Shown: piece after piece, positions 24,292-49,372 of the stretch
How the letters are laid out: every line of letters begins with the position of its first letter
Position numbering within the stretch: the first letter of the stretch is position 1
From: Naegleria gruberi
Lineage: Eukaryota
Assembly: GCA_000004985.1 (NCBI GenBank)
Contig: GG738896.1
DNA: 64,000 nucleotides
Reading direction: 5' to 3' (one strand)
Made by a program: the position numbers and the translations under genes
Notes under the pieces: model-generated
What the model was told of the DNA's origin: nothing
Seen by the model: the letters and a program-made list of their open reading frames with translations, nothing else
Database searches by the model: none

Positions 24292-25620
24292 GATCTTTTT
24301 GAATTTCCTTATGACTATTGCAGTAAACGCCAAACTCAATTGCATTTCAGTAATTAATGGGATGAAATCATTGTGCAAAGTATGCTGTTGACCTGTTGAT
24401 AAAAAACTTGAAAGTTTTGGGAGTTTTTTCAATCTGTTGGCCAAGGTAGTGAAGAACTCTTTCATTTATGTACCTAAAATGCAAAGAAAGTTCCAAATAG
24501 ATCTGCATGTTCACATGATGAGTGCAAACATATTTTAAATGCTGCCAAAGGACATTTAAATTGTTTAAGTTTCTATTAATTATTAAAAAAATTAAGGTAC
24601 CAATCTGCATGTTCACAAATCCCCCATTCACAAACCATGGCTGGTAAGGAATGCAGCAATCATCTATGAACGAGGAAACCTACAGCGAAGCATGTTTCCA
24701 GTTCGATATCATGCTCAAGATATGTGACTACAGAGTCTTCATCTTGGTTAACCTCAAAGGTCAGATTGACTCAAAAAAGTCGAGTTTATGTATTCCTACA
24801 GAAAAGATCCTGTAGAAGTACAGTCAATGGTTTTATCAAGTTTCATTTGTGAGGTTTGTGATATTGGTTTTGAATGTGTGAAAAGTGAGGTTAAAAAATT
24901 GTGGTACTTTTATGTGAAAAATATAAATTTCGATTCAAGAAAATAATTGAATGTTGATGGCTTCAAGATCAGCTCACAATTTTTAAGAACTTCCTCCTGA
25001 AAGTTGTAAGAAACAACTAATTAAGTGAAGAATTTCCTCATTCCTTGCACAAATACTATTATAATCTGTGAAATGACAAAAAGACAGGTTCCTAATTGAG
25101 ATGAGGTGATATTGATCCTCCCTATGAACTTGTTGATCAAATGAAAATTACATTCATGAATGTTTGCTTCAAAAGTTGAAAGTGGCATTTCCTAAAATAT
25201 AAATAGAAAGAGAGCTGGCTTGAATGTGACAAAATTGTCTCTTGTTCAATTAAAAAAAAAGAAACCTCCTGCAATGAATCTTCAGTCGAGTATTTTCATA
25301 GATTCATTGAGCCCTCTTGTCCAATCAAATCGTTCTAGAAAGAGTGGCGGAGGGCTGATAATTAATGTAGAGGGAGGAAATCCCTGATTGTAACCAAGTA
25401 TTTGCAGTAATGTGAATCCACAGCAGTTAAAAGAGTCTCCTTAATAGTAAACAACAACCCGAACAATTTGGATAAGATTGAATTTACAAGTTTTTCAATA
25501 AAGTTCTTTAAATTGTCAAATGATTTGTATTTAATTTTCTTCAATGTTTGTACATTTCCATTTCAATATTCTCTACATTTCAATATTTAAAGCTGTAAAA
25601 ACAATAAGGTGAAATTAAAA

Positions 25621-25739
25621 AGACTACAGCTTCACAGGTTCCCAAGTTGTCTCCAACCTCAGTACTGATGTGGCTCGACGATGCTTAACTTCTCAAATCG
25701 GACGGGATGAGGTGCATTCATCGTGATATGGCCGTAGCC
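25621..25739 (-). rRNA. 5S ribosomal RNA gene (full length, ~119 nt) with a downstream T-run terminator
   Basis: The reverse complement reads GGCTACGGCCATATCACGATGAATGCACCTCATCCCGTCCGATTTGAGAAGTTAAGCATCGTCGAGCCACATCAGTACTGAGGTTGGAGACAACTTGGGAACCTGTGAAGCTGTAGTCT, followed by TTTTT. This carries the conserved 5S motifs (..CCCGTCCGAT.TGAGAAGTTAAGC..AGTACTG.GG.TGGGAGAC..TGGGAA..). The 5'/3' ends pair as helix I (GGCUAC/GUAGUC). Confidence 0.8.
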
Positions 25740-40237: not shown

Positions 40238-40310
40238 GCCGACATAGCTCAGTTGGGAGAGCGTAAGACTGAAGATCTTAAGGTCCCTGGTTCGATCCCT
40301 GGTGTCGGCA
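40238..40310 (+). tRNA. tRNA-Phe (anticodon GAA), 73 nt, no encoded CCA
   Basis: GCCGACA-TA-GCTC-AGTTGGGA-GAGC-G-TAAGA-CTGAAGA-TCTTA-AGGTC-CCTGG-TTCGATC-CCTGG-TGTCGGC-A. The acceptor, D and anticodon stems pair perfectly. The anticodon loop CUGAAGA gives GAA. The sequence is close to other eukaryotic tRNA-Phe, with one T-T mismatch in the T-stem. It is followed by a T5 Pol III terminator. Confidence 0.85.
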
Positions 40311-43987: not shown

Positions 43988-46111
43988 ATGGCCCAAGTTG
44001 AAACTTACAAATTCCAAGCCGAAATCAATCAATTGATGAGCTTGATTATTAATACATTCTACAGCAATAAGGAAGTCTTTTTGAGAGAGTTGATTTCCAA
44101 TGCTTCAGATGCTTTGGATAAGATTCGTTATATGAGTTTGACTGAACCTTCAGTTTTGGATACTGAAAAGGAATTGTGCATTCATTTAATTCCTGATAAG
44201 GTAAACAAGACATTGACAATTAGAGATACAGGTTGTGGTATGGCCAAGCACGATTTAATTAATTGCTTGGGAACTGTTGCAAGATCTGGAACTAAACAAT
44301 TTATGGAAATGCTTCAAGCTGGTGCTGATGTTTCCTTAATTGGTCAATTTGGTGTTGGTTTCTATTCTGCTTACCTTGTTGCTGATCGAGTTGTTGTCAC
44401 AACTAAACACAATGATGATGAACAATACATTTGGGAATCATCTGCTGGTGGCAGTTTTACAATTACTTTGGATGAAAGTGGTGAAAAATTGTCACGTGGA
44501 ACCAAGATTGTTCTTCACATGAAAGACGATCAATTAGAATATTTGGAAGAAAGAAAGTTGAAGGATTTGGTAAAGAAGCACTCTGAATTTATTGGTTATC
44601 CAATCTCTTTACAAGTTGAAAAGACTGAAGAGAAGGAAGTTGATGAAGATGACTCCATGTCAGATGATGAAAAGAAGGACGAAGACAAGAAGGAAGATGG
44701 TCCAAAGATTGAAGAAGTCAAGGAAGTAGATGACAAGAAAAAGAAGAAGGTTAAAGAAGTCAAGAAAGAGCTCGAATTGTTGAATAAGAACAAGCCATTG
44801 TGGACTCGTGATCCAAAGACTGTCACTAAGGAAGAATATTCCAGTTTCTACAAGGCATTGACAAATGATTGGGAAGAACATTTGGCTGTCAAGCACTTTT
44901 CAGTTGAAGGCAACTTTGAATTCAAGAGTTTGTTGTTCACACCCAAGAGAGCTCCATTCGATCTATTCGAACCAAAGAAGAAACTCAACAATATCAAACT
45001 CTATGTTAGAAAGGTCTTTATTATGGATAATTGTGAAGAGTTGATTCCAGAATATTTGAATTTTGTGAAGGGTATTGTTGACTCTGAAGATTTGCCATTG
45101 AATATTTCCCGTGAACACTTGCAACAAAACAAGATTATGAAAGTTATTAGAAAGAATTTAGTCAAGAAGTGTATTGAAATGTTCACTGAACTTGCTGAGA
45201 ATAAGGAAGATTTCAAGACTTTCTATGAAGCATTTGGAAAGAATTTGAAATTGGGTATTCATGAAGATTCTCAAAATAGACAAAAGTTGGCCGAGTTATT
45301 GAGATTCCACTCCTCTCAAACTAAAGGTGAAGATTGGACCAGCCTCAAGGAATATATTGAACGTATGAAGGAAGGTCAAGAATTTATCTATTACATTACT
45401 GGTGAAAGCAGAAAGGCAGTTGCTAGCTCACCATTCATTGAAAAGTGCACCAAGAAGGGAGTTGAAGTCTTGTACATGACTGATCCAATTGATGAATACA
45501 TGGTTCAACAATTGAAAGAATTCGAAGGCAAGAAATTAGTGTGTGTAACAAAGGAAGGATTGAAATTGCCAGAAACTGAAGAAGAAAAGAAGAAGAAGGA
45601 AGAATTGAAGGCCTCATTCGAAGCATTGTGCAAGTTGATGAAGGATATTTTGGGAGATAGAGTTGAAAAGGTTGTTGTTTCTGATAGACTTGGTGATTCT
45701 CCATGTTGTTTGGTTACTGGTGAATATGGTTGGAGTGCAAATATGGAAAGAATCATGAAAGCTCAAGCTTTGAAGGACAATTCTATGGCCTCCTACATGG
45801 TTTCAAAGAAAACAATGGAAATTAATCCAGAAAATTCTATTGTCAATGAATTGAGAAAGAAGGCTGAAGCTAATAAGGCTGACAAGACTGTCAGAGATTT
45901 GGTTTGGTTGTTATTCGAAACTGCCTTATTGACTTCTGGTTTCAGTATGGAAGAACCTCATACTTATGCTTCCAGAATTCACAGAATGATCAAACTTGGT
46001 TTGAGTATTGATGAAGAAGATCTTGCCTCTGAAAAGACTGAAACAACAAGCCAAGAAAATAAGGTTGAAGAAAGTCCAGCTGCTGAATCCTTAATGGAAG
46101 ATGTTGATTAA
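43988..46111 (+). CDS. HSP90: Cytosolic heat-shock protein 90 (HSP90), intronless, 707 aa
   Basis: Full-length alignment-quality match to HSP90 ([22 protein letters not shown]; [39 protein letters not shown]; a charged linker; [18 protein letters not shown]). The C-terminus is ..MEDVD, a variant of the MEEVD TPR-binding motif. Codon usage is biased toward highly expressed codons (GGT/GCT/TTG/AGA/AAG). Confidence 0.95.
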
Positions 46112-46121
46112 AATAAATAAT

Positions 46122-49100
46122 TTATCTCTTTTCCTTTACAAAGAATCTCAATAAGAGACCAGCTAAAACAATAAAGAAAACAGCAAAGCTTGCAGTGAAA
46201 ATGATATCCGCATAGAATCTTTCGTGGTCCATTCCCAATTCTTTCAGGAAAAAGTCACCATCACCTGGGAAGCTTGGGAAACCTTTTGGATCAATAACGA
46301 TTGGGAATCCGTGCAATTCATTGATGAGAAGGGCTTCATAGGCATAACTAAAGTATGAAAAGTATTTAATCCATGAGAGGTAGACTGGAAGTGAATCAGT
46401 ATTCAACAAGAATCCAGCAAACAACATATTTCCAAGAATTAACAAAATTGAAATCAAGTTAGCAGAAGCAACACTATTAGCAATTGTACCAATACAAATA
46501 CAGAGAGCTCCACTTGCTAAATTGAATAAAATTAAAATGAAAATAAACCAAAAGAAGTGTGAAGTGATTTCTCTCAAACCAATCATCCACTAATAATATT
46601 TTAGATAATTATTTCTATTGTCAAATAATCAATATTGAAAAATACTTACATAAGCAATAGATCCCATAATAATTGGTGGAATGACACGGAGTGGAATTAA
46701 ATCAAAGAAAGTCTTTGAGAAAAAGTATGAAATTGAAAGATAGTATCCATTTGCTCTTTCTCTCACATAAATTGTACGTTCTGTAATAAATAATTCCAAG
46801 CTAGACATGGCAGCAAAGTTCAACAAAGCACACATGAAGAAAATACTACCCATTCTGTTTTGACAAGCTTGGATATTGTTACTTTGCTGGAAGTAAATGG
46901 CACCAAGTAAAAGACCCATGATAATAGCACTCAAATAGTGAGCTGGCATAAGGTAGAAATTTCTGTAAAAGTTACGGAATGATCTCTTAGATAAAATGTA
47001 AAGTTGCGTATAGAACGAGGTGGCATACTCTTGAACCTTCTTGGTGTAAATATTATCTTCTGTCTTTACCAAGAGATTTTGTGATTCTTGATTTTCAGAT
47101 CCATAACCAGATTGTTTGAAAATTGGTTGTTGGTAAGATAAAGATTGATTATTTTGATTAATAGAAGTTCCTTGAGTCTCATTTTCTGACATTTCTGACA
47201 TGACATCTAATAAAAAGTCAGCAGGATTGTATTGAGATGGACAGTCATGACCAAGTTTTGACAAATAATCCAATGATCCTTCAGCACTTCCACTATAGAA
47301 TATTTTACCATCCTTCATTAAGAGTAAATTATCAAATTGTTGGAAAATATTAGAACGAGGTTGATGGATAGAGAATACAATAGTTCTGTTATGTTTAGTG
47401 GCCAGGTCGCAAATAGTCTTGATGGTTGAGACTGCGTGATATGAATCCAATCCCTTAAAAAGTTTGTCATTCATTAATAAAAGTAAAATTACTAACACTT
47501 GTAGGTTCATCCAAGAAGAGAATTTGTGGTGCAATGACTAATTCACAAGCAATACTGACACGACGTTTTTCGCCTCCAGAAATACCTTAAAAAGTTTGTT
47601 ATTCATGAAATAAAAGTAAAATTACTTACCTCTTGTCATGGCATCACCAATCTTTCTATCACGAATATGTGAAATTCCAAGCTCTTCCATAACAGACTCA
47701 ACACGTCTCTTCTTTTCCGTATATGGGACAGTATCAGGTAAACGAAGCTCCGCACTAAACATGATTGATTCAAAAACTGTCAAGGTACCCATTAAATGAT
47801 CATCTGATTGAGATACATAACCAGCAACTCTCTTATATTGGTTATAGTCAATTGGTTTGTTATTAACCAATAATTCTCCAAAAACATCTCCAGATTTAGA
47901 TCTACCAGCAATAATATCCAATAATGATGTTTTACCAGCTCCAGAAGGACCCATAATAGCAGTAACAGTTCCCGGTTTAAAGGTGTGACTCAATCCATGA
48001 AGAAGTGTAATTCTATTCTTGCTCTTGAGATGGAGAGCCCTTTCTCTTTCCTCCTCCTTTTCTTCCTTTGCAATATCTTCCTCATTGACTCCACTAACTT
48101 CCTGGAGAGAATTGATTTTCTTAGCAGTAGTTCTGATAATATAGGTCAAGTTACGAATTTCCAACTTGGCTCCAAATTCATTATTTCCTGTCTTCATCAT
48201 ATCCTCATATTCATGTTTAACCTTTCTAGTTTGAAGTTTAGAATAAATAATACTGAAAATTAATACAATCATGATAGCAACAAAAATTACTGAACCAACA
48301 GCTCCAGCAACAATTTTAGGTAAATCATTTTGTTTTGGTGGTTGAGGTGCAGGAACGTATACATCAACACACTCAGCAGCATGATCACAAGTTGATTGAA
48401 TAACACCAGGGAAGTTTTCATGTTGAACTATTAGAAAAATATTAACAGGTAAATATTTTAACATTGGAATTGAAACTTACTTGAACAAGACTTGGTTTCG
48501 TTATTACACTGTACATTTGCATAACCAGTCATGTGTTCTAATATATACAATACAAACTGGTTATAACATTTTGGAGAAATCATTGAACATGCACAGCCAG
48601 TAGTATATCCACATTTGTATAATACTTCTCCTTTTTCTGGAATTGATAAGACACAATCGTGGAATGTACAATAAAAAGTTTCAGCAAGAGAAGTATCAGA
48701 CTTGTCAAATGATCTGAAATAACAATTTCCACCAGCTGTCTTATTTTCCATTCCATTACAGTCAATTGTGAAATAATTTCCCATGAGAGGTATCATTCTT
48801 TCCGAAGTAACTTCACAACTATAAACCTTTTCTTTCTGTGGAATGTATGATTTATCACAAAAAGCAGCCGAATTGTTCAATCGTTGTTGACAAACGTAAT
48901 CATTACTACACATTCTACAATCCAATCCTTCCCATCCAGGTTGACAAGAACAAACTGGAGATTTATCGTCATCACTACTCGTACTAAATAAATTTCTTCT
49001 TGTGTTCGAATCATCATAAACTTTATCTGTCAATGATTTTCCATTTACACAGTCAATCAAAGAACAATTTCTAATTCCCATGGATAAATCATTCTTGAAA

Positions 49101-49372
49101 CCAGGCAAACAAACACATGTTGTATTATCTGTCGAACAATATCCAGCATTCATACATCTCGCATCACTATCACAAATTGTCCAATCGTATTGTTGTTGTC
49201 CAACAATTAGACTACCACTACTCATCATTATGATCACTAGGAAAATAAATAATACTAAACCACTACCACCGAATTTGAATGAATTATTGTTTGGGTTCTT
49301 CCGAATCCTATGTAGACCATGAGAGATCCCACCATTGGAAGAAGATAATGGGTTGGATAGCGATATCTGCAT
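46122..49372 (-). CDS. ABCG (White-type) half-transporter with an N-terminal signal-anchor plus an EGF-like cysteine-rich ectodomain and an extra TM helix; 5 exons, ~1016 aa
   Basis: Exons 48481-49372, 47630-48427, 47497-47585, 46650-47453, 46122-46589; introns of 53, 44, 43 and 60 nt with donors GTAAGT, GTAAGT, GTTAGT, GTAAGT. The total is 3051 nt, divisible by 3. Exon 1 has a signal anchor ([19 protein letters not shown]) and ~230 aa with more than 30 Cys, including EGF-like [12 protein letters not shown] and [15 protein letters not shown]. Exon 2 has a TM helix, then NBD Walker [18 protein letters not shown]. Exon 3 has the signature [12 protein letters not shown] and Walker [10 protein letters not shown]. 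Exon 4 begins [20 protein letters not shown]. Exons 4-5 carry an ABC2-type 6-TM domain. Confidence 0.8.
47454..47496 (-). repeat. Intron 3 of the ABCG gene, a near-identical copy of intron 2
   Basis: On the minus strand this is gttagtaattttacttttattaatgaatgacaaactttttaag. It is about 85-90% identical to intron 2 (47586-47629: gtaagtaattttacttttatttcatgaataacaaactttttaag). Confidence 0.8.
47586..47629 (-). repeat. Intron 2 of the ABCG gene (paired with the 47454-47496 copy)
   Basis: See 47454-47496. The two copies are separated by the 89-nt exon that encodes the ABC signature and Walker B. Confidence 0.8.

What the first reader, a model, noticed from the sequence alone, without database searches (positions are those of the whole stretch)
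46122..49372. ABCG half-transporter with an N-terminal EGF-like cysteine-rich ectodomain
Exon 1 encodes a signal-anchor and a ~230-aa domain with more than 30 cysteines, including EGF-like CxCxxGxxxxxC modules. It is spliced at phase 1, through a 53-nt intron, directly onto a TM helix and a standard ABCG NBD-TMD. This gives a predicted topology of an ectodomain, one TM, a cytosolic NBD and a 6-TM domain. ABCG half-transporters normally start with the cytosolic NBD. An extracellular ligand-binding-type domain fused to an ABC exporter suggests a receptor-like or regulated transporter.
Basis: partly seen in the sequence, partly recalled or inferred. Interest (0 to 1): 0.7.

Follow-up and report, generated by a model that had tools for sequence, protein, structure and literature searches.

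The report
ABCG transporter with conserved outside-facing barrel domain
This Naegleria-type gene really does encode an ABCG half-transporter carrying a cysteine-rich outside-facing domain and an extra membrane helix at its front; the layout defines a conserved, apparently undescribed protist subfamily whose added domain is predicted to be a small disulfide-locked beta-barrel.

Summary
A five-exon gene on the minus strand (49372-46122, four GT..AG introns of 53, 44, 43 and 60 nt) encodes a 1016-aa protein. In order it has a signal sequence, an ectodomain of about 280 aa with 26 cysteines, one extra TM helix, and a canonical ABCG NBD-TMD. The fusion does not rest on the predicted intron. A 68%-identical relative has one uninterrupted ORF across the junction. 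The Naegleria lovaniensis protein (72% identical) is colinear. The intron also cuts through a predicted beta-strand of the ectodomain.

The layout is not a one-off. An exhaustive search found about 20 long proteins with the same ectodomain, and all are ABCG-type. They come from Heterolobosea, Amoebozoa (transcriptomes) and many metagenomes. The ectodomain has no Pfam or PDB sequence match. AlphaFold2 models it confidently (pLDDT 87) as an EGF-like module plus an eight-stranded up-and-down beta-barrel resembling lipocalin, Gid4 and ToxS.

Plant ABCG24/28 has an analogous layout, but its ectodomain is not homologous and its core forms a separate clade.

Function is inferred: a homodimeric exporter whose barrels receive or sense a hydrophobic ligand on the outer face. 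I class it as a new variant of a known kind, of moderate interest.

The parts
46122..49372 (-). Whole gene: five exons (49372-48481, 48427-47630, 47585-47497, 47453-46650, 46589-46122) encoding 1016 aa. Stop TAA at 46124-46122.
   Evidence: Translation is open across all junctions. It is colinear with the N. lovaniensis protein P0054, 72% identity over residues 84-1016 with no gaps at junctions.
48428..48480 (-). Intron 1, 53 nt, GTAAGT..TAG, phase 1. If retained, an in-frame TAA follows after 7 further codons.
   Evidence: Relative L003 has an uninterrupted ORF here. The junction (residues 297/298) lies inside a predicted beta-strand.
47586..47629 (-). Intron 2, 44 nt, GT..AG. It splits the codon of G564, just before the ISGGE signature.
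47454..47496 (-). Intron 3, 43 nt, GTTAGT..AAG, phase 0, between EPTS and GLDS.
46590..46649 (-). Intron 4, 60 nt, GTAAGT..TAG, phase 0, inside the TMD (IAY|WMIG).
49202..49372 (-). N-terminal targeting sequence: a 38-aa n-region with 4 K/R, then the hydrophobic core [19 protein letters not shown] (residues 39-57). A possible cleavage site lies after G58.
   Evidence: Hydropathy 2.76 and charge distribution. Homologues carry classical signal peptides at residues 1-25. Cleavage was not tested.
49064..49174 (-). EGF-like module 1 (residues 67-103, six Cys).
   Evidence: Pfam EGF 21.9 bits against a cut-off of 21.5 on the isolated ectodomain. Present in most but not all family members.
48956..49048 (-). 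Variable, low-complexity loop (residues 109-139).
   Evidence: 23-27% identity to close relatives, against 65-70% for the flanks. pLDDT below 55. A near-identical strain has an in-frame 3-nt indel at 49001-48999.
48360..48955 (-). Conserved ectodomain core (residues 140-320; the range includes intron 1): an EGF-like half-module [12 protein letters not shown], then a disulfide-rich beta-barrel of about 8-9 strands. It has 14 invariant and 5 near-invariant columns, mostly Cys.
48186..48323 (-). Extra transmembrane helix TM0 (hydrophobic core at residues 337-359, 48243-48311), predicted as one continuous ~46-residue helix (residues 333-378) running into the first NBD strand.
   Evidence: Hydropathy 2.98. 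Present in all 18 long family members. Corresponds to helix H282-327 in the full-length AF2 model of the ortholog.
47313..48182 (-). Nucleotide-binding domain (residues 380-640; the range includes introns 2 and 3). Walker A GPSGAGKT 457-464, Q-loop 501-504, signature ISGGE 565-569, Walker B ILFLDEP 585-591, H-loop SIHQP 621-625. It carries an acidic insertion of about 35 aa after the first strand.
   Evidence: Pfam ABC_tran 107.8 bits. Motif positions.
46125..47009 (-). ABCG-type transmembrane domain (residues 742-1016; the range includes intron 4), six TM helices. The last extracellular loop has no cysteines.
   Evidence: Pfam ABC2_membrane 148.4 bits. Foldseek of the ortholog model against ABCG2 gives target TM-score 0.89-0.90. 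Loop cysteines.

Best explanation
One gene encodes a member of a conserved, so far unnamed subfamily of ABCG half-transporters.

Shown:
- The polypeptide starts with a signal sequence.
- Next comes an exoplasmic module made of one or two EGF-like units plus a disulfide-locked eight-stranded beta-barrel.
- An additional helix (TM0) then crosses the membrane once.
- The chain continues after a short tether into a catalytically intact NBD and a six-helix ABCG TMD.

Inferred from the ABCG family:
- The protein works as a homodimer.
- It is an ATP-driven exporter or floppase of a hydrophobic or amphipathic substrate.

Inferred from fold resemblance and from analogy with the extracellular domains of ABCA transporters and the periplasmic domains of LptFG and MacB:
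- The two barrels sit over the exoplasmic mouth of the TMD and act as the acceptor or hand-off site for the exported lipid-like substrate.

My confidence by step: about 0.95 for the architecture and its membership in a conserved family, about 0.8 for an active ABCG-type exporter, and about 0.35 for the acceptor role of the barrel.
For: Gene model and fusion:
- The CDS is open across four GT..AG introns.
- It is colinear at 72% identity with N. lovaniensis C9374_011775.
- Metagenome contig L003 has an uninterrupted 804-aa ORF (68% identity) running from ectodomain through TM0 and NBD into the TMD.
- A 98.4%-identical strain (L001) differs in exon 1 only by substitutions and one in-frame 3-nt indel.
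- The splice site falls inside a predicted strand, and the last barrel strand with two conserved Cys is in exon 2.

Family:
- phmmer of exon-1 residues 58-297 against 1.84 billion representatives gave 40 hits.
- All 18 long ones that match this domain have ABC_tran plus ABC2_membrane C-terminal to the match. They also have a TM helix 52-183 residues before Walker A and, where the N-terminus is complete, a signal peptide.
- Short hits also run into TM0 and Walker A.
- Named members are Acrasis kona, Clastostelium, Soliformovum and Physarum.
- The ABCG cores of ectodomain-bearing proteins group together in 137 of 200 NJ bootstraps.

Ectodomain fold:
- AF2 gives pLDDT 87 and pTM 0.82.

Core:
- All ATPase motifs are intact.
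- The full-length model of the ortholog has pLDDT 82.8 and pTM 0.75.
- Its core superposes on ABCG2, ABCG1, ABCG5/8, ABCG16 and ABCG25 with target TM-scores of 0.78-0.90.

Topology:
- 26 Cys and 5 sequons in the ectodomain, and more K/R after TM0 than before it.
Against: - No expression data for this gene were available.
- Topology, signal-peptide cleavage and dimerisation are predictions.
- I could not inspect the model coordinates. I therefore do not know whether the barrel has a cavity or whether it docks on the TMD.
- The family split has only moderate bootstrap support (68%).
- No substrate can be inferred from sequence.
Confidence: 0.6

Rival explanations
1. Receptor-like or ligand-regulated transporter. 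The barrel binds an external signal and, through TM0 and its rigid helical extension into the NBD, switches ATPase or transport on or off.
For: - Structural neighbours include ToxS and VtrC, barrels of single-pass membrane sensors.
- TM0 is predicted as one continuous ~46-residue helix ending at the first NBD strand.
- The juxtamembrane segment is well conserved: 70-73% identity between Naegleria-type sequences.
Against: No ABCG is known to be gated this way. Nothing computed here distinguishes sensing from substrate hand-off. The TM0-to-NBD spacing varies widely in the family, from 52 to 183 residues to Walker A, which argues against a rigid allosteric coupling.
Confidence: 0.2
2. The ectodomain is a non-catalytic accessory. 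It could serve as a dimerisation, sorting, quality-control or adhesion module (EGF-like protein-protein interaction surface) with no direct role in the transport cycle.
For: - EGF-like modules are typical interaction domains.
- The ectodomain evolves faster than the NBD and TMD: 65-70% against 82-88% identity.
- The N-terminal EGF module and the loop are variable or absent in some members.
Against: The barrel core, with 14 invariant columns, is retained in every member found and was never seen apart from an ABCG core. This suggests a function tied to the transporter itself.
Confidence: 0.17
3. It is an orthologue of the plant long half-size ABCG24/ABCG28 group, which has the same layout.
For: Plant and streptophyte ABCG24-type proteins also have a signal peptide, a 22-26-Cys ectodomain, one TM and then NBD-TMD.
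Against: - hhalign between the two ectodomain profiles gives probability 0.1%.
- The ectodomain HMM does not hit any ABCG24-type protein.
- The PF19055 TMD model scores 707 bits on Arabidopsis-type ABCG24 but only 60.8 bits, and partially, on this protein.
- In the NJ tree the two groups were sisters in 0 of 200 bootstraps.
Confidence: 0.03
4. Two separate genes (a secreted Cys-rich protein and an ordinary ABCG) that were wrongly joined.
For: An unspliced transcript would stop 8 codons into intron 1.
Against: - An uninterrupted ORF spans the junction in L003.
- Transcriptome-derived single proteins exist in three amoebozoans.
- The domain is split by the intron.
- Exon 2 has no start codon before TM0 that would give a sensible ABCG N-terminus.
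Confidence: 0.02

Closest known systems
Canonical ABCG half-transporters (human ABCG2, ABCG1, ABCG5/G8; Arabidopsis ABCG16, ABCG25)
   Same: Reverse NBD-then-TMD order and all ATPase motifs. The ABC2_membrane TMD is present. The predicted core superposes on solved ABCG structures with target TM-score 0.78-0.90 and 25-31% identity.
   Different: About 380 extra N-terminal residues: signal sequence, EGF-like modules, beta-barrel and an extra TM helix. No solved ABCG chain covers them (query TM-score only about 0.5). The last extracellular loop lacks the cysteines seen in ABCG2-type proteins (the comparison with ABCG2 is from my own knowledge).
Plant long half-size ABCG24/ABCG28. ABCG28 is reported in pollen-tube tip growth (Do et al. 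2019, PNAS), a paper cited in PMC9409143 that I could not read.
   Same: Same order of parts: signal peptide, ectodomain of about 270 aa with 22-26 Cys, one TM, cytosolic linker, NBD, TMD. Neither ectodomain has a Pfam model.
   Different: The ectodomains show no detectable homology. The TMD is of a different Pfam type (PF19055 at full length in plants). The clade is separate. The cytosolic linker is much longer in plants: about 210-240 residues from TM0 to Walker A, against about 100 here.
Calycin-like eight-stranded up-and-down beta-barrels (lipocalins, nitrobindin, avidins, Gid4/Gid10, ToxS/VtrC)
   Different: Sequence identity is 3-13%. This barrel is heavily disulfide-bonded and preceded by an EGF-like module. 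Foldseek finds nothing below E = 1e-3. This is resemblance of fold only.
ABCA transporters with large extracellular domains (ABCA1, ABCA4, ABCA7)
   Same: Same concept: a type-V (ABC2-type) exporter core combined with a structured, disulfide-bonded exoplasmic domain thought to receive lipid. This rests on my own knowledge; PMC13257379 mentions the ordered ~600-aa ECDs.
   Different: In ABCA the domains are inserted between TM1 and TM2 of each half and are unrelated in fold. Here the domain is N-terminal and tethered by an additional helix.

Membership tests
ABCG subfamily of ABC transporters | NBD lies N-terminal to the TMD (reverse topology) | tested here: met
   ABC_tran at residues 440-593, ABC2_membrane at residues 742-953.
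ABCG subfamily of ABC transporters | Intact Walker A, Q-loop, ABC signature, Walker B and H-loop | tested here: met
   GPSGAGKT 457-464, YVSQ 501-504, ISGGE 565-569, ILFLDEP 585-591, SIHQP 621-625.
ABCG subfamily of ABC transporters | ABC2-type six-helix TMD with the ABCG fold | tested here: met
   PF01061 at 148.4 bits. The model of the 72%-identical ortholog superposes on ABCG2 and ABCG1 with target TM-score 0.89-0.90.
ABCG subfamily of ABC transporters | Functions as a homo- or heterodimer | not testable with these tools
   Inferred from the family. No multimer modelling was available.
EGF-like domain (Pfam PF00008) | Six-cysteine EGF pattern scoring above the curated threshold | tested here: inconclusive
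   21.9 bits against a cut-off of 21.5 for residues 67-93 when the ectodomain is scanned alone; 13.8 bits in the full protein. The only PDB sequence match is to the Tie2 EGF repeats, at a non-significant E = 0.6.
Plant ABCG24/ABCG28 long half-size group | Homologous N-terminal Cys-rich ectodomain | tested here: not met
   hhalign probability 0.1%. The ectodomain HMM finds no ABCG24-type protein.
Plant ABCG24/ABCG28 long half-size group | PF19055-type TMD matched over its full length, and common ancestry of the core | tested here: not met
   PF19055 scores 60.8 bits, best stretch profile positions 1-68 of 410, against 707 bits at full length in P0128. The two groups were sisters in 0 of 200 bootstraps.
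Calycin / lipocalin superfamily | Eight-stranded antiparallel up-and-down barrel | tested here: inconclusive
Calycin / lipocalin superfamily | Conserved sequence motifs and a ligand cavity | not tested
Identity to the hits is 3-13%.
Ectodomain-bearing ABCG group defined here | Conserved core pattern C-x-C-x2-GW-x-G-x2-C-x2-C ... CD ... K-x-F-x-C, with 14 invariant columns, followed by TM0 and an ABCG core | tested here: met
   Alignment A1. The family HMM scores the Naegleria orthologue at 2.6e-63 and all long members at 1e-49 or better.

The most novel reading that the evidence does not exclude
The ectodomain is a new extracellular domain family that arose once, early in eukaryote evolution. 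Members occur in Discoba and Amoebozoa, probably in a mucoromycete fungus, and in many uncultured lineages. Together with TM0 it turns an ABCG exporter into a two-compartment machine. Either the barrel is an obligatory exoplasmic acceptor that takes the lipid-like substrate from the TMD, a eukaryotic ABCG counterpart of the ABCA ECDs or the LptFG jellyrolls. Or it is a ligand sensor that gates the pump through the rigid TM0 helix.
Probability: 0.2. Interest if true: 0.75.

Novelty: new variant of a known kind. Interest (0 to 1): 0.5.

Why it matters
ABCG transporters move sterols, lipids, hormones and drugs. How substrate leaves the transporter on the outer face is still debated. A conserved ABCG lineage with a built-in, confidently modelled exoplasmic barrel offers a natural system in which the 'acceptor' is covalently attached, so hand-off could be studied structurally.

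It also adds an unannotated domain family to the catalogue. There is no Pfam model and no solved relative, so current pipelines label these proteins only as generic ABC transporters or hypothetical proteins.

Naegleria includes the pathogen N. fowleri. A surface-exposed, lineage-restricted domain on a transporter could interest researchers as a marker or target, but I did not find the N. fowleri orthologue here.

The practical caveat is that similar proteins are already in public databases and that plants show a parallel design. This is therefore a refinement of ABCG diversity rather than a new kind of system.

Tried and rejected
1. Word-indexed homologue search with residues 1-393 returned only a 280-aa metagenomic fragment of the same species. 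The same tool with the ectodomain alignment returned nothing, although members exist. This is a sensitivity limit, not absence.
2. Exact look-up of the neighbouring HSP90 to identify the organism found nothing on record. The species stays undetermined. The best match is N. lovaniensis at 72%.
3. The spliced protein could not be submitted to the exhaustive search or to AF2. I used the exon-1 translation for the search, and the 59%- and 72%-identical relatives as modelling targets.
4. AFDB Foldseek was unavailable, so I could not list named AlphaFold models of the family or compare the plant N-terminal domain by fold.
5. PDB sequence searches with the ectodomain profile and with the EGF region found no significant hits.
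6. I tested whether the intron-free metagenomic members are viral. Pattern scans of IMG/VR with P0022 and P0036 found no relatives, and the alignment was too divergent to scan with.
7. Literature searches for a description of this architecture found none (papers checked). The ABCG28 paper was not held.
8. The two-gene reading and the ABCG24-orthologue reading are rejected; see the rival explanations.
9. tblastn found no second copy of the ectodomain in the window.
Full report
**1. The observation**

The minus strand between 49372 and 46122 carries four adjoining ORF pieces. Joined at canonical GT..AG sites, they give an open 3051-nt CDS of 1016 aa.
- Exons: 49372-48481, 48427-47630, 47585-47497, 47453-46650, 46589-46122.
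- Introns: 53, 44, 43 and 60 nt.
- The ATG at 49372 is the first start codon after an upstream in-frame stop. It lies 284 nt downstream of the stop codon of the neighbouring RCC1-like gene.

Pfam finds ABC_tran at residues 440-593 (107.8 bits) and ABC2_membrane at 742-953 (148.4 bits). Walker A, Q-loop, signature, Walker B and H-loop are all intact. Two further hydrophobic segments lie at residues 39-57 and 337-359.

Between them are 278 residues with 26 cysteines, against 7 in the other ~680 residues, and five N-x-S/T sequons.

- There are 26 cysteines, not more than 30.
- There is one exact CxCxxGxxxxxC motif plus one looser one.
- Pfam EGF support is marginal, 21.9 bits against a cut-off of 21.5.
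- Exon 2 first encodes the end of the ectodomain, not the TM helix.

**2. One gene or two**

Four independent lines show one gene.
- The annotated Naegleria lovaniensis protein C9374_011775 (P0054) is 72% identical and colinear from residue 84 to the C-terminus, with no gap at any of the four junctions.
- Metagenome contig L003 carries an uninterrupted 804-aa ORF (P0002, 68% identical). It runs from the ectodomain through the extra TM helix and the NBD into the TMD, so in that relative no splicing is needed.
- Full-length proteins with the same order of parts come from transcriptome assemblies of Clastostelium, Soliformovum and Physarum.
- In the AF2 model, the exon 1/exon 2 boundary (residues 297/298) falls inside a beta-strand. 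The final strand (residues 306-318, with family-conserved C311 and C317) is encoded by exon 2.

A 98.4%-identical strain in another metagenome (L001) differs in exon 1 by substitutions and one in-frame 3-nt indel in the variable loop.

**3. Organism**

- The window has 31% G+C, short introns, and a best match to Naegleria.
- The next named relative of the ectodomain is Acrasis kona.
- It is therefore a heterolobosean, not an amoebozoan.
- The species could not be fixed.

**4. A conserved family**

phmmer with exon-1 residues 58-297 against 1.84 billion cluster representatives gave 40 hits.
- Eighteen of the 19 long hits (799-1205 aa) match with this domain near their N-terminus. All 18 have ABC_tran and ABC2_membrane C-terminal to it.
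- The nineteenth long hit (P0012, 1633 aa) has no ABC domains and matches only through a short 48-residue stretch (residues 21-68 of the query fragment, i.e. protein residues 78-125).
- The members share a hydrophobic helix 52-183 residues before Walker A, 17-26 ectodomain cysteines and, where the N-terminus is complete, a classical signal peptide.
- Short hits are fragments that also continue into TM0 and Walker A.
- I never saw the domain without an ABCG core.
- The alignment has 14 invariant and 5 near-invariant columns, mostly cysteines, with the core pattern C-x-C-x2-G-W-x-G-x2-C-x2-C ... C-D ... K-x-F-x-C.
- An HMM built from it also detects a divergent copy in the fungus Dissophora globulifera (6.6e-13), a 1345-aa metagenomic protein, and weakly a Caulerpa-labelled full-size ABCG.
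- In an NJ tree of NBD-TMD cores, the ectodomain-bearing proteins fall on one side of a split in 137 of 200 bootstraps.

**5. What the ectodomain is**

- No Pfam family covers the conserved core.
- No PDB sequence matches it.
- AF2 on the 59%-identical P0002 ectodomain, with a 19-sequence alignment, gives pLDDT 87 and pTM 0.82. The model has a short EGF-like hairpin, then eight to nine long strands with two helical inserts.
- Foldseek gives nothing significant.

I read this as a disulfide-locked calycin-like barrel. That is resemblance of fold, not membership.

A full-length model of the N. lovaniensis orthologue (61-sequence alignment) has pLDDT 82.8 and pTM 0.75.
- The ectodomain is confident, at about 90.
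- One continuous 46-residue helix (TM0 plus a cytosolic extension) leads straight into the first NBD strand.
- The core superposes on ABCG2, ABCG1, ABCG5/8, ABCG16 and ABCG25 with target TM-scores of 0.78-0.90. No solved chain covers the N-terminal 380 residues.

**6. How it probably works**

Shown:
- The order of parts.
- Intact ATPase motifs.
- Conservation of the ectodomain at 65-70% identity between Naegleria-type sequences, against 82-88% for the NBD and TMD and about 25% for the variable loop.

Inferred from topology rules:
- The signal sequence puts the Cys-rich module outside or in the lumen.
- TM0 returns the chain to the cytosol, where there is more K/R after TM0 than before it.
- This lets the NBD and the six-helix TMD adopt the normal ABCG orientation.

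Inferred from the family: it is a homodimer that exports a hydrophobic substrate.

My preferred reading, at about 0.35, is that the barrels are the exoplasmic acceptor for that substrate.
- Barrels of this kind usually hold small hydrophobic ligands.
- Related type-V exporters (ABCA) and bacterial LptFG and MacB use fused exoplasmic domains for hand-off (my own knowledge).

ToxS/VtrC-like neighbours and the rigid TM0 helix speak for it. The very variable TM0-to-NBD spacing speaks against a tight allosteric link. An accessory role in sorting, dimerisation or adhesion is about as likely, at roughly 0.17.

**7. Comparison with what is known**

The core is an ordinary ABCG.

The closest precedent for the layout is the plant long half-size group ABCG24/ABCG28. 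Its members, including Klebsormidium and a green alga, also have a signal peptide, a 22-26-Cys ectodomain and one TM before the NBD-TMD. Three tests separate the two groups:
- The ectodomains are not detectably homologous (hhalign 0.1%; no HMM hit).
- The plant TMD is the PF19055 type: 707 bits at full length, against 60.8 bits and a partial match here.
- The two groups were sisters in 0 of 200 bootstraps.

So this is either convergence or divergence beyond recognition. Only a fold comparison, which I could not run, would tell.

I found no paper describing this family.

**8. Verdict**

In one respect it is more interesting, because it carries a confidently modelled, un-annotated barrel domain that is always tied to an ABCG core. 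I class it as a new variant of a known kind, with interest 0.5.

Noticed in passing
window 46112-46121: Only 10 nt separate the stop codon of the HSP90 gene (43988-46111, + strand) from the stop codon of the convergent ABCG gene (46124-46122, - strand). Their 3' UTRs and polyadenylation signals must therefore overlap on opposite strands.
   Followed up: no
window 24599-24827 (-), 25621-25739 (-), 40238-40310 (+): U3 snoRNA (76 bits), a 5S rRNA gene (97 bits) and one tRNA lie in the same window, interspersed with protein-coding genes.
   Followed up: no
P0054 (N. lovaniensis C9374_011775), residues 1-25: The annotated orthologue starts MGLLKNKQIIG... It lacks a signal peptide and the first half of EGF module 1, and AF2 pLDDT is about 40 there. 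The public gene model is probably truncated or mis-started at its 5' end.
   Followed up: partly
L004 1-23597 and L006 1-23618: Two long metagenome contigs (79 kb and 69 kb) carry intron-free family members. The surrounding genes are densely packed and mostly have no Pfam match, apart from TBP, a histone, RING fingers and a giant EGF-repeat protein. The source could be a compact protist or a giant virus. Pattern scans of IMG/VR found no relatives.
   Followed up: partly
P0128, P0132, P0137, P0133, P0142 (plant and algal ABCG24-type), first ~300 residues: The plant long ABCGs have their own conserved 22-26-Cys ectodomain (motifs such as [20 protein letters not shown]). It also has no Pfam model and seems little discussed.
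   Followed up: partly
P0164 (Naegleria fowleri, 1047 aa): A different Naegleria ABCG has a ~390-residue N-terminal extension with two hydrophobic segments and only 2 cysteines. N-terminal extensions of ABCGs therefore come in several unrelated forms in this genus.
   Followed up: no
window 48999-49001 vs L001: A 98.4%-identical environmental strain (ENA ERZ929261 / ERR1078381) has an in-frame 3-nt deletion in the low-complexity loop of the ectodomain. It has no differences in intron 1.
   Followed up: yes
window residues 395-430 of the protein (about 48030-48140): An acidic, ~35-residue insertion ([26 protein letters not shown]) sits between the first NBD strand and Walker A. It is conserved between Naegleria-type sequences, and part of it is modelled with low confidence (pLDDT about 50-60).
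   Followed up: no
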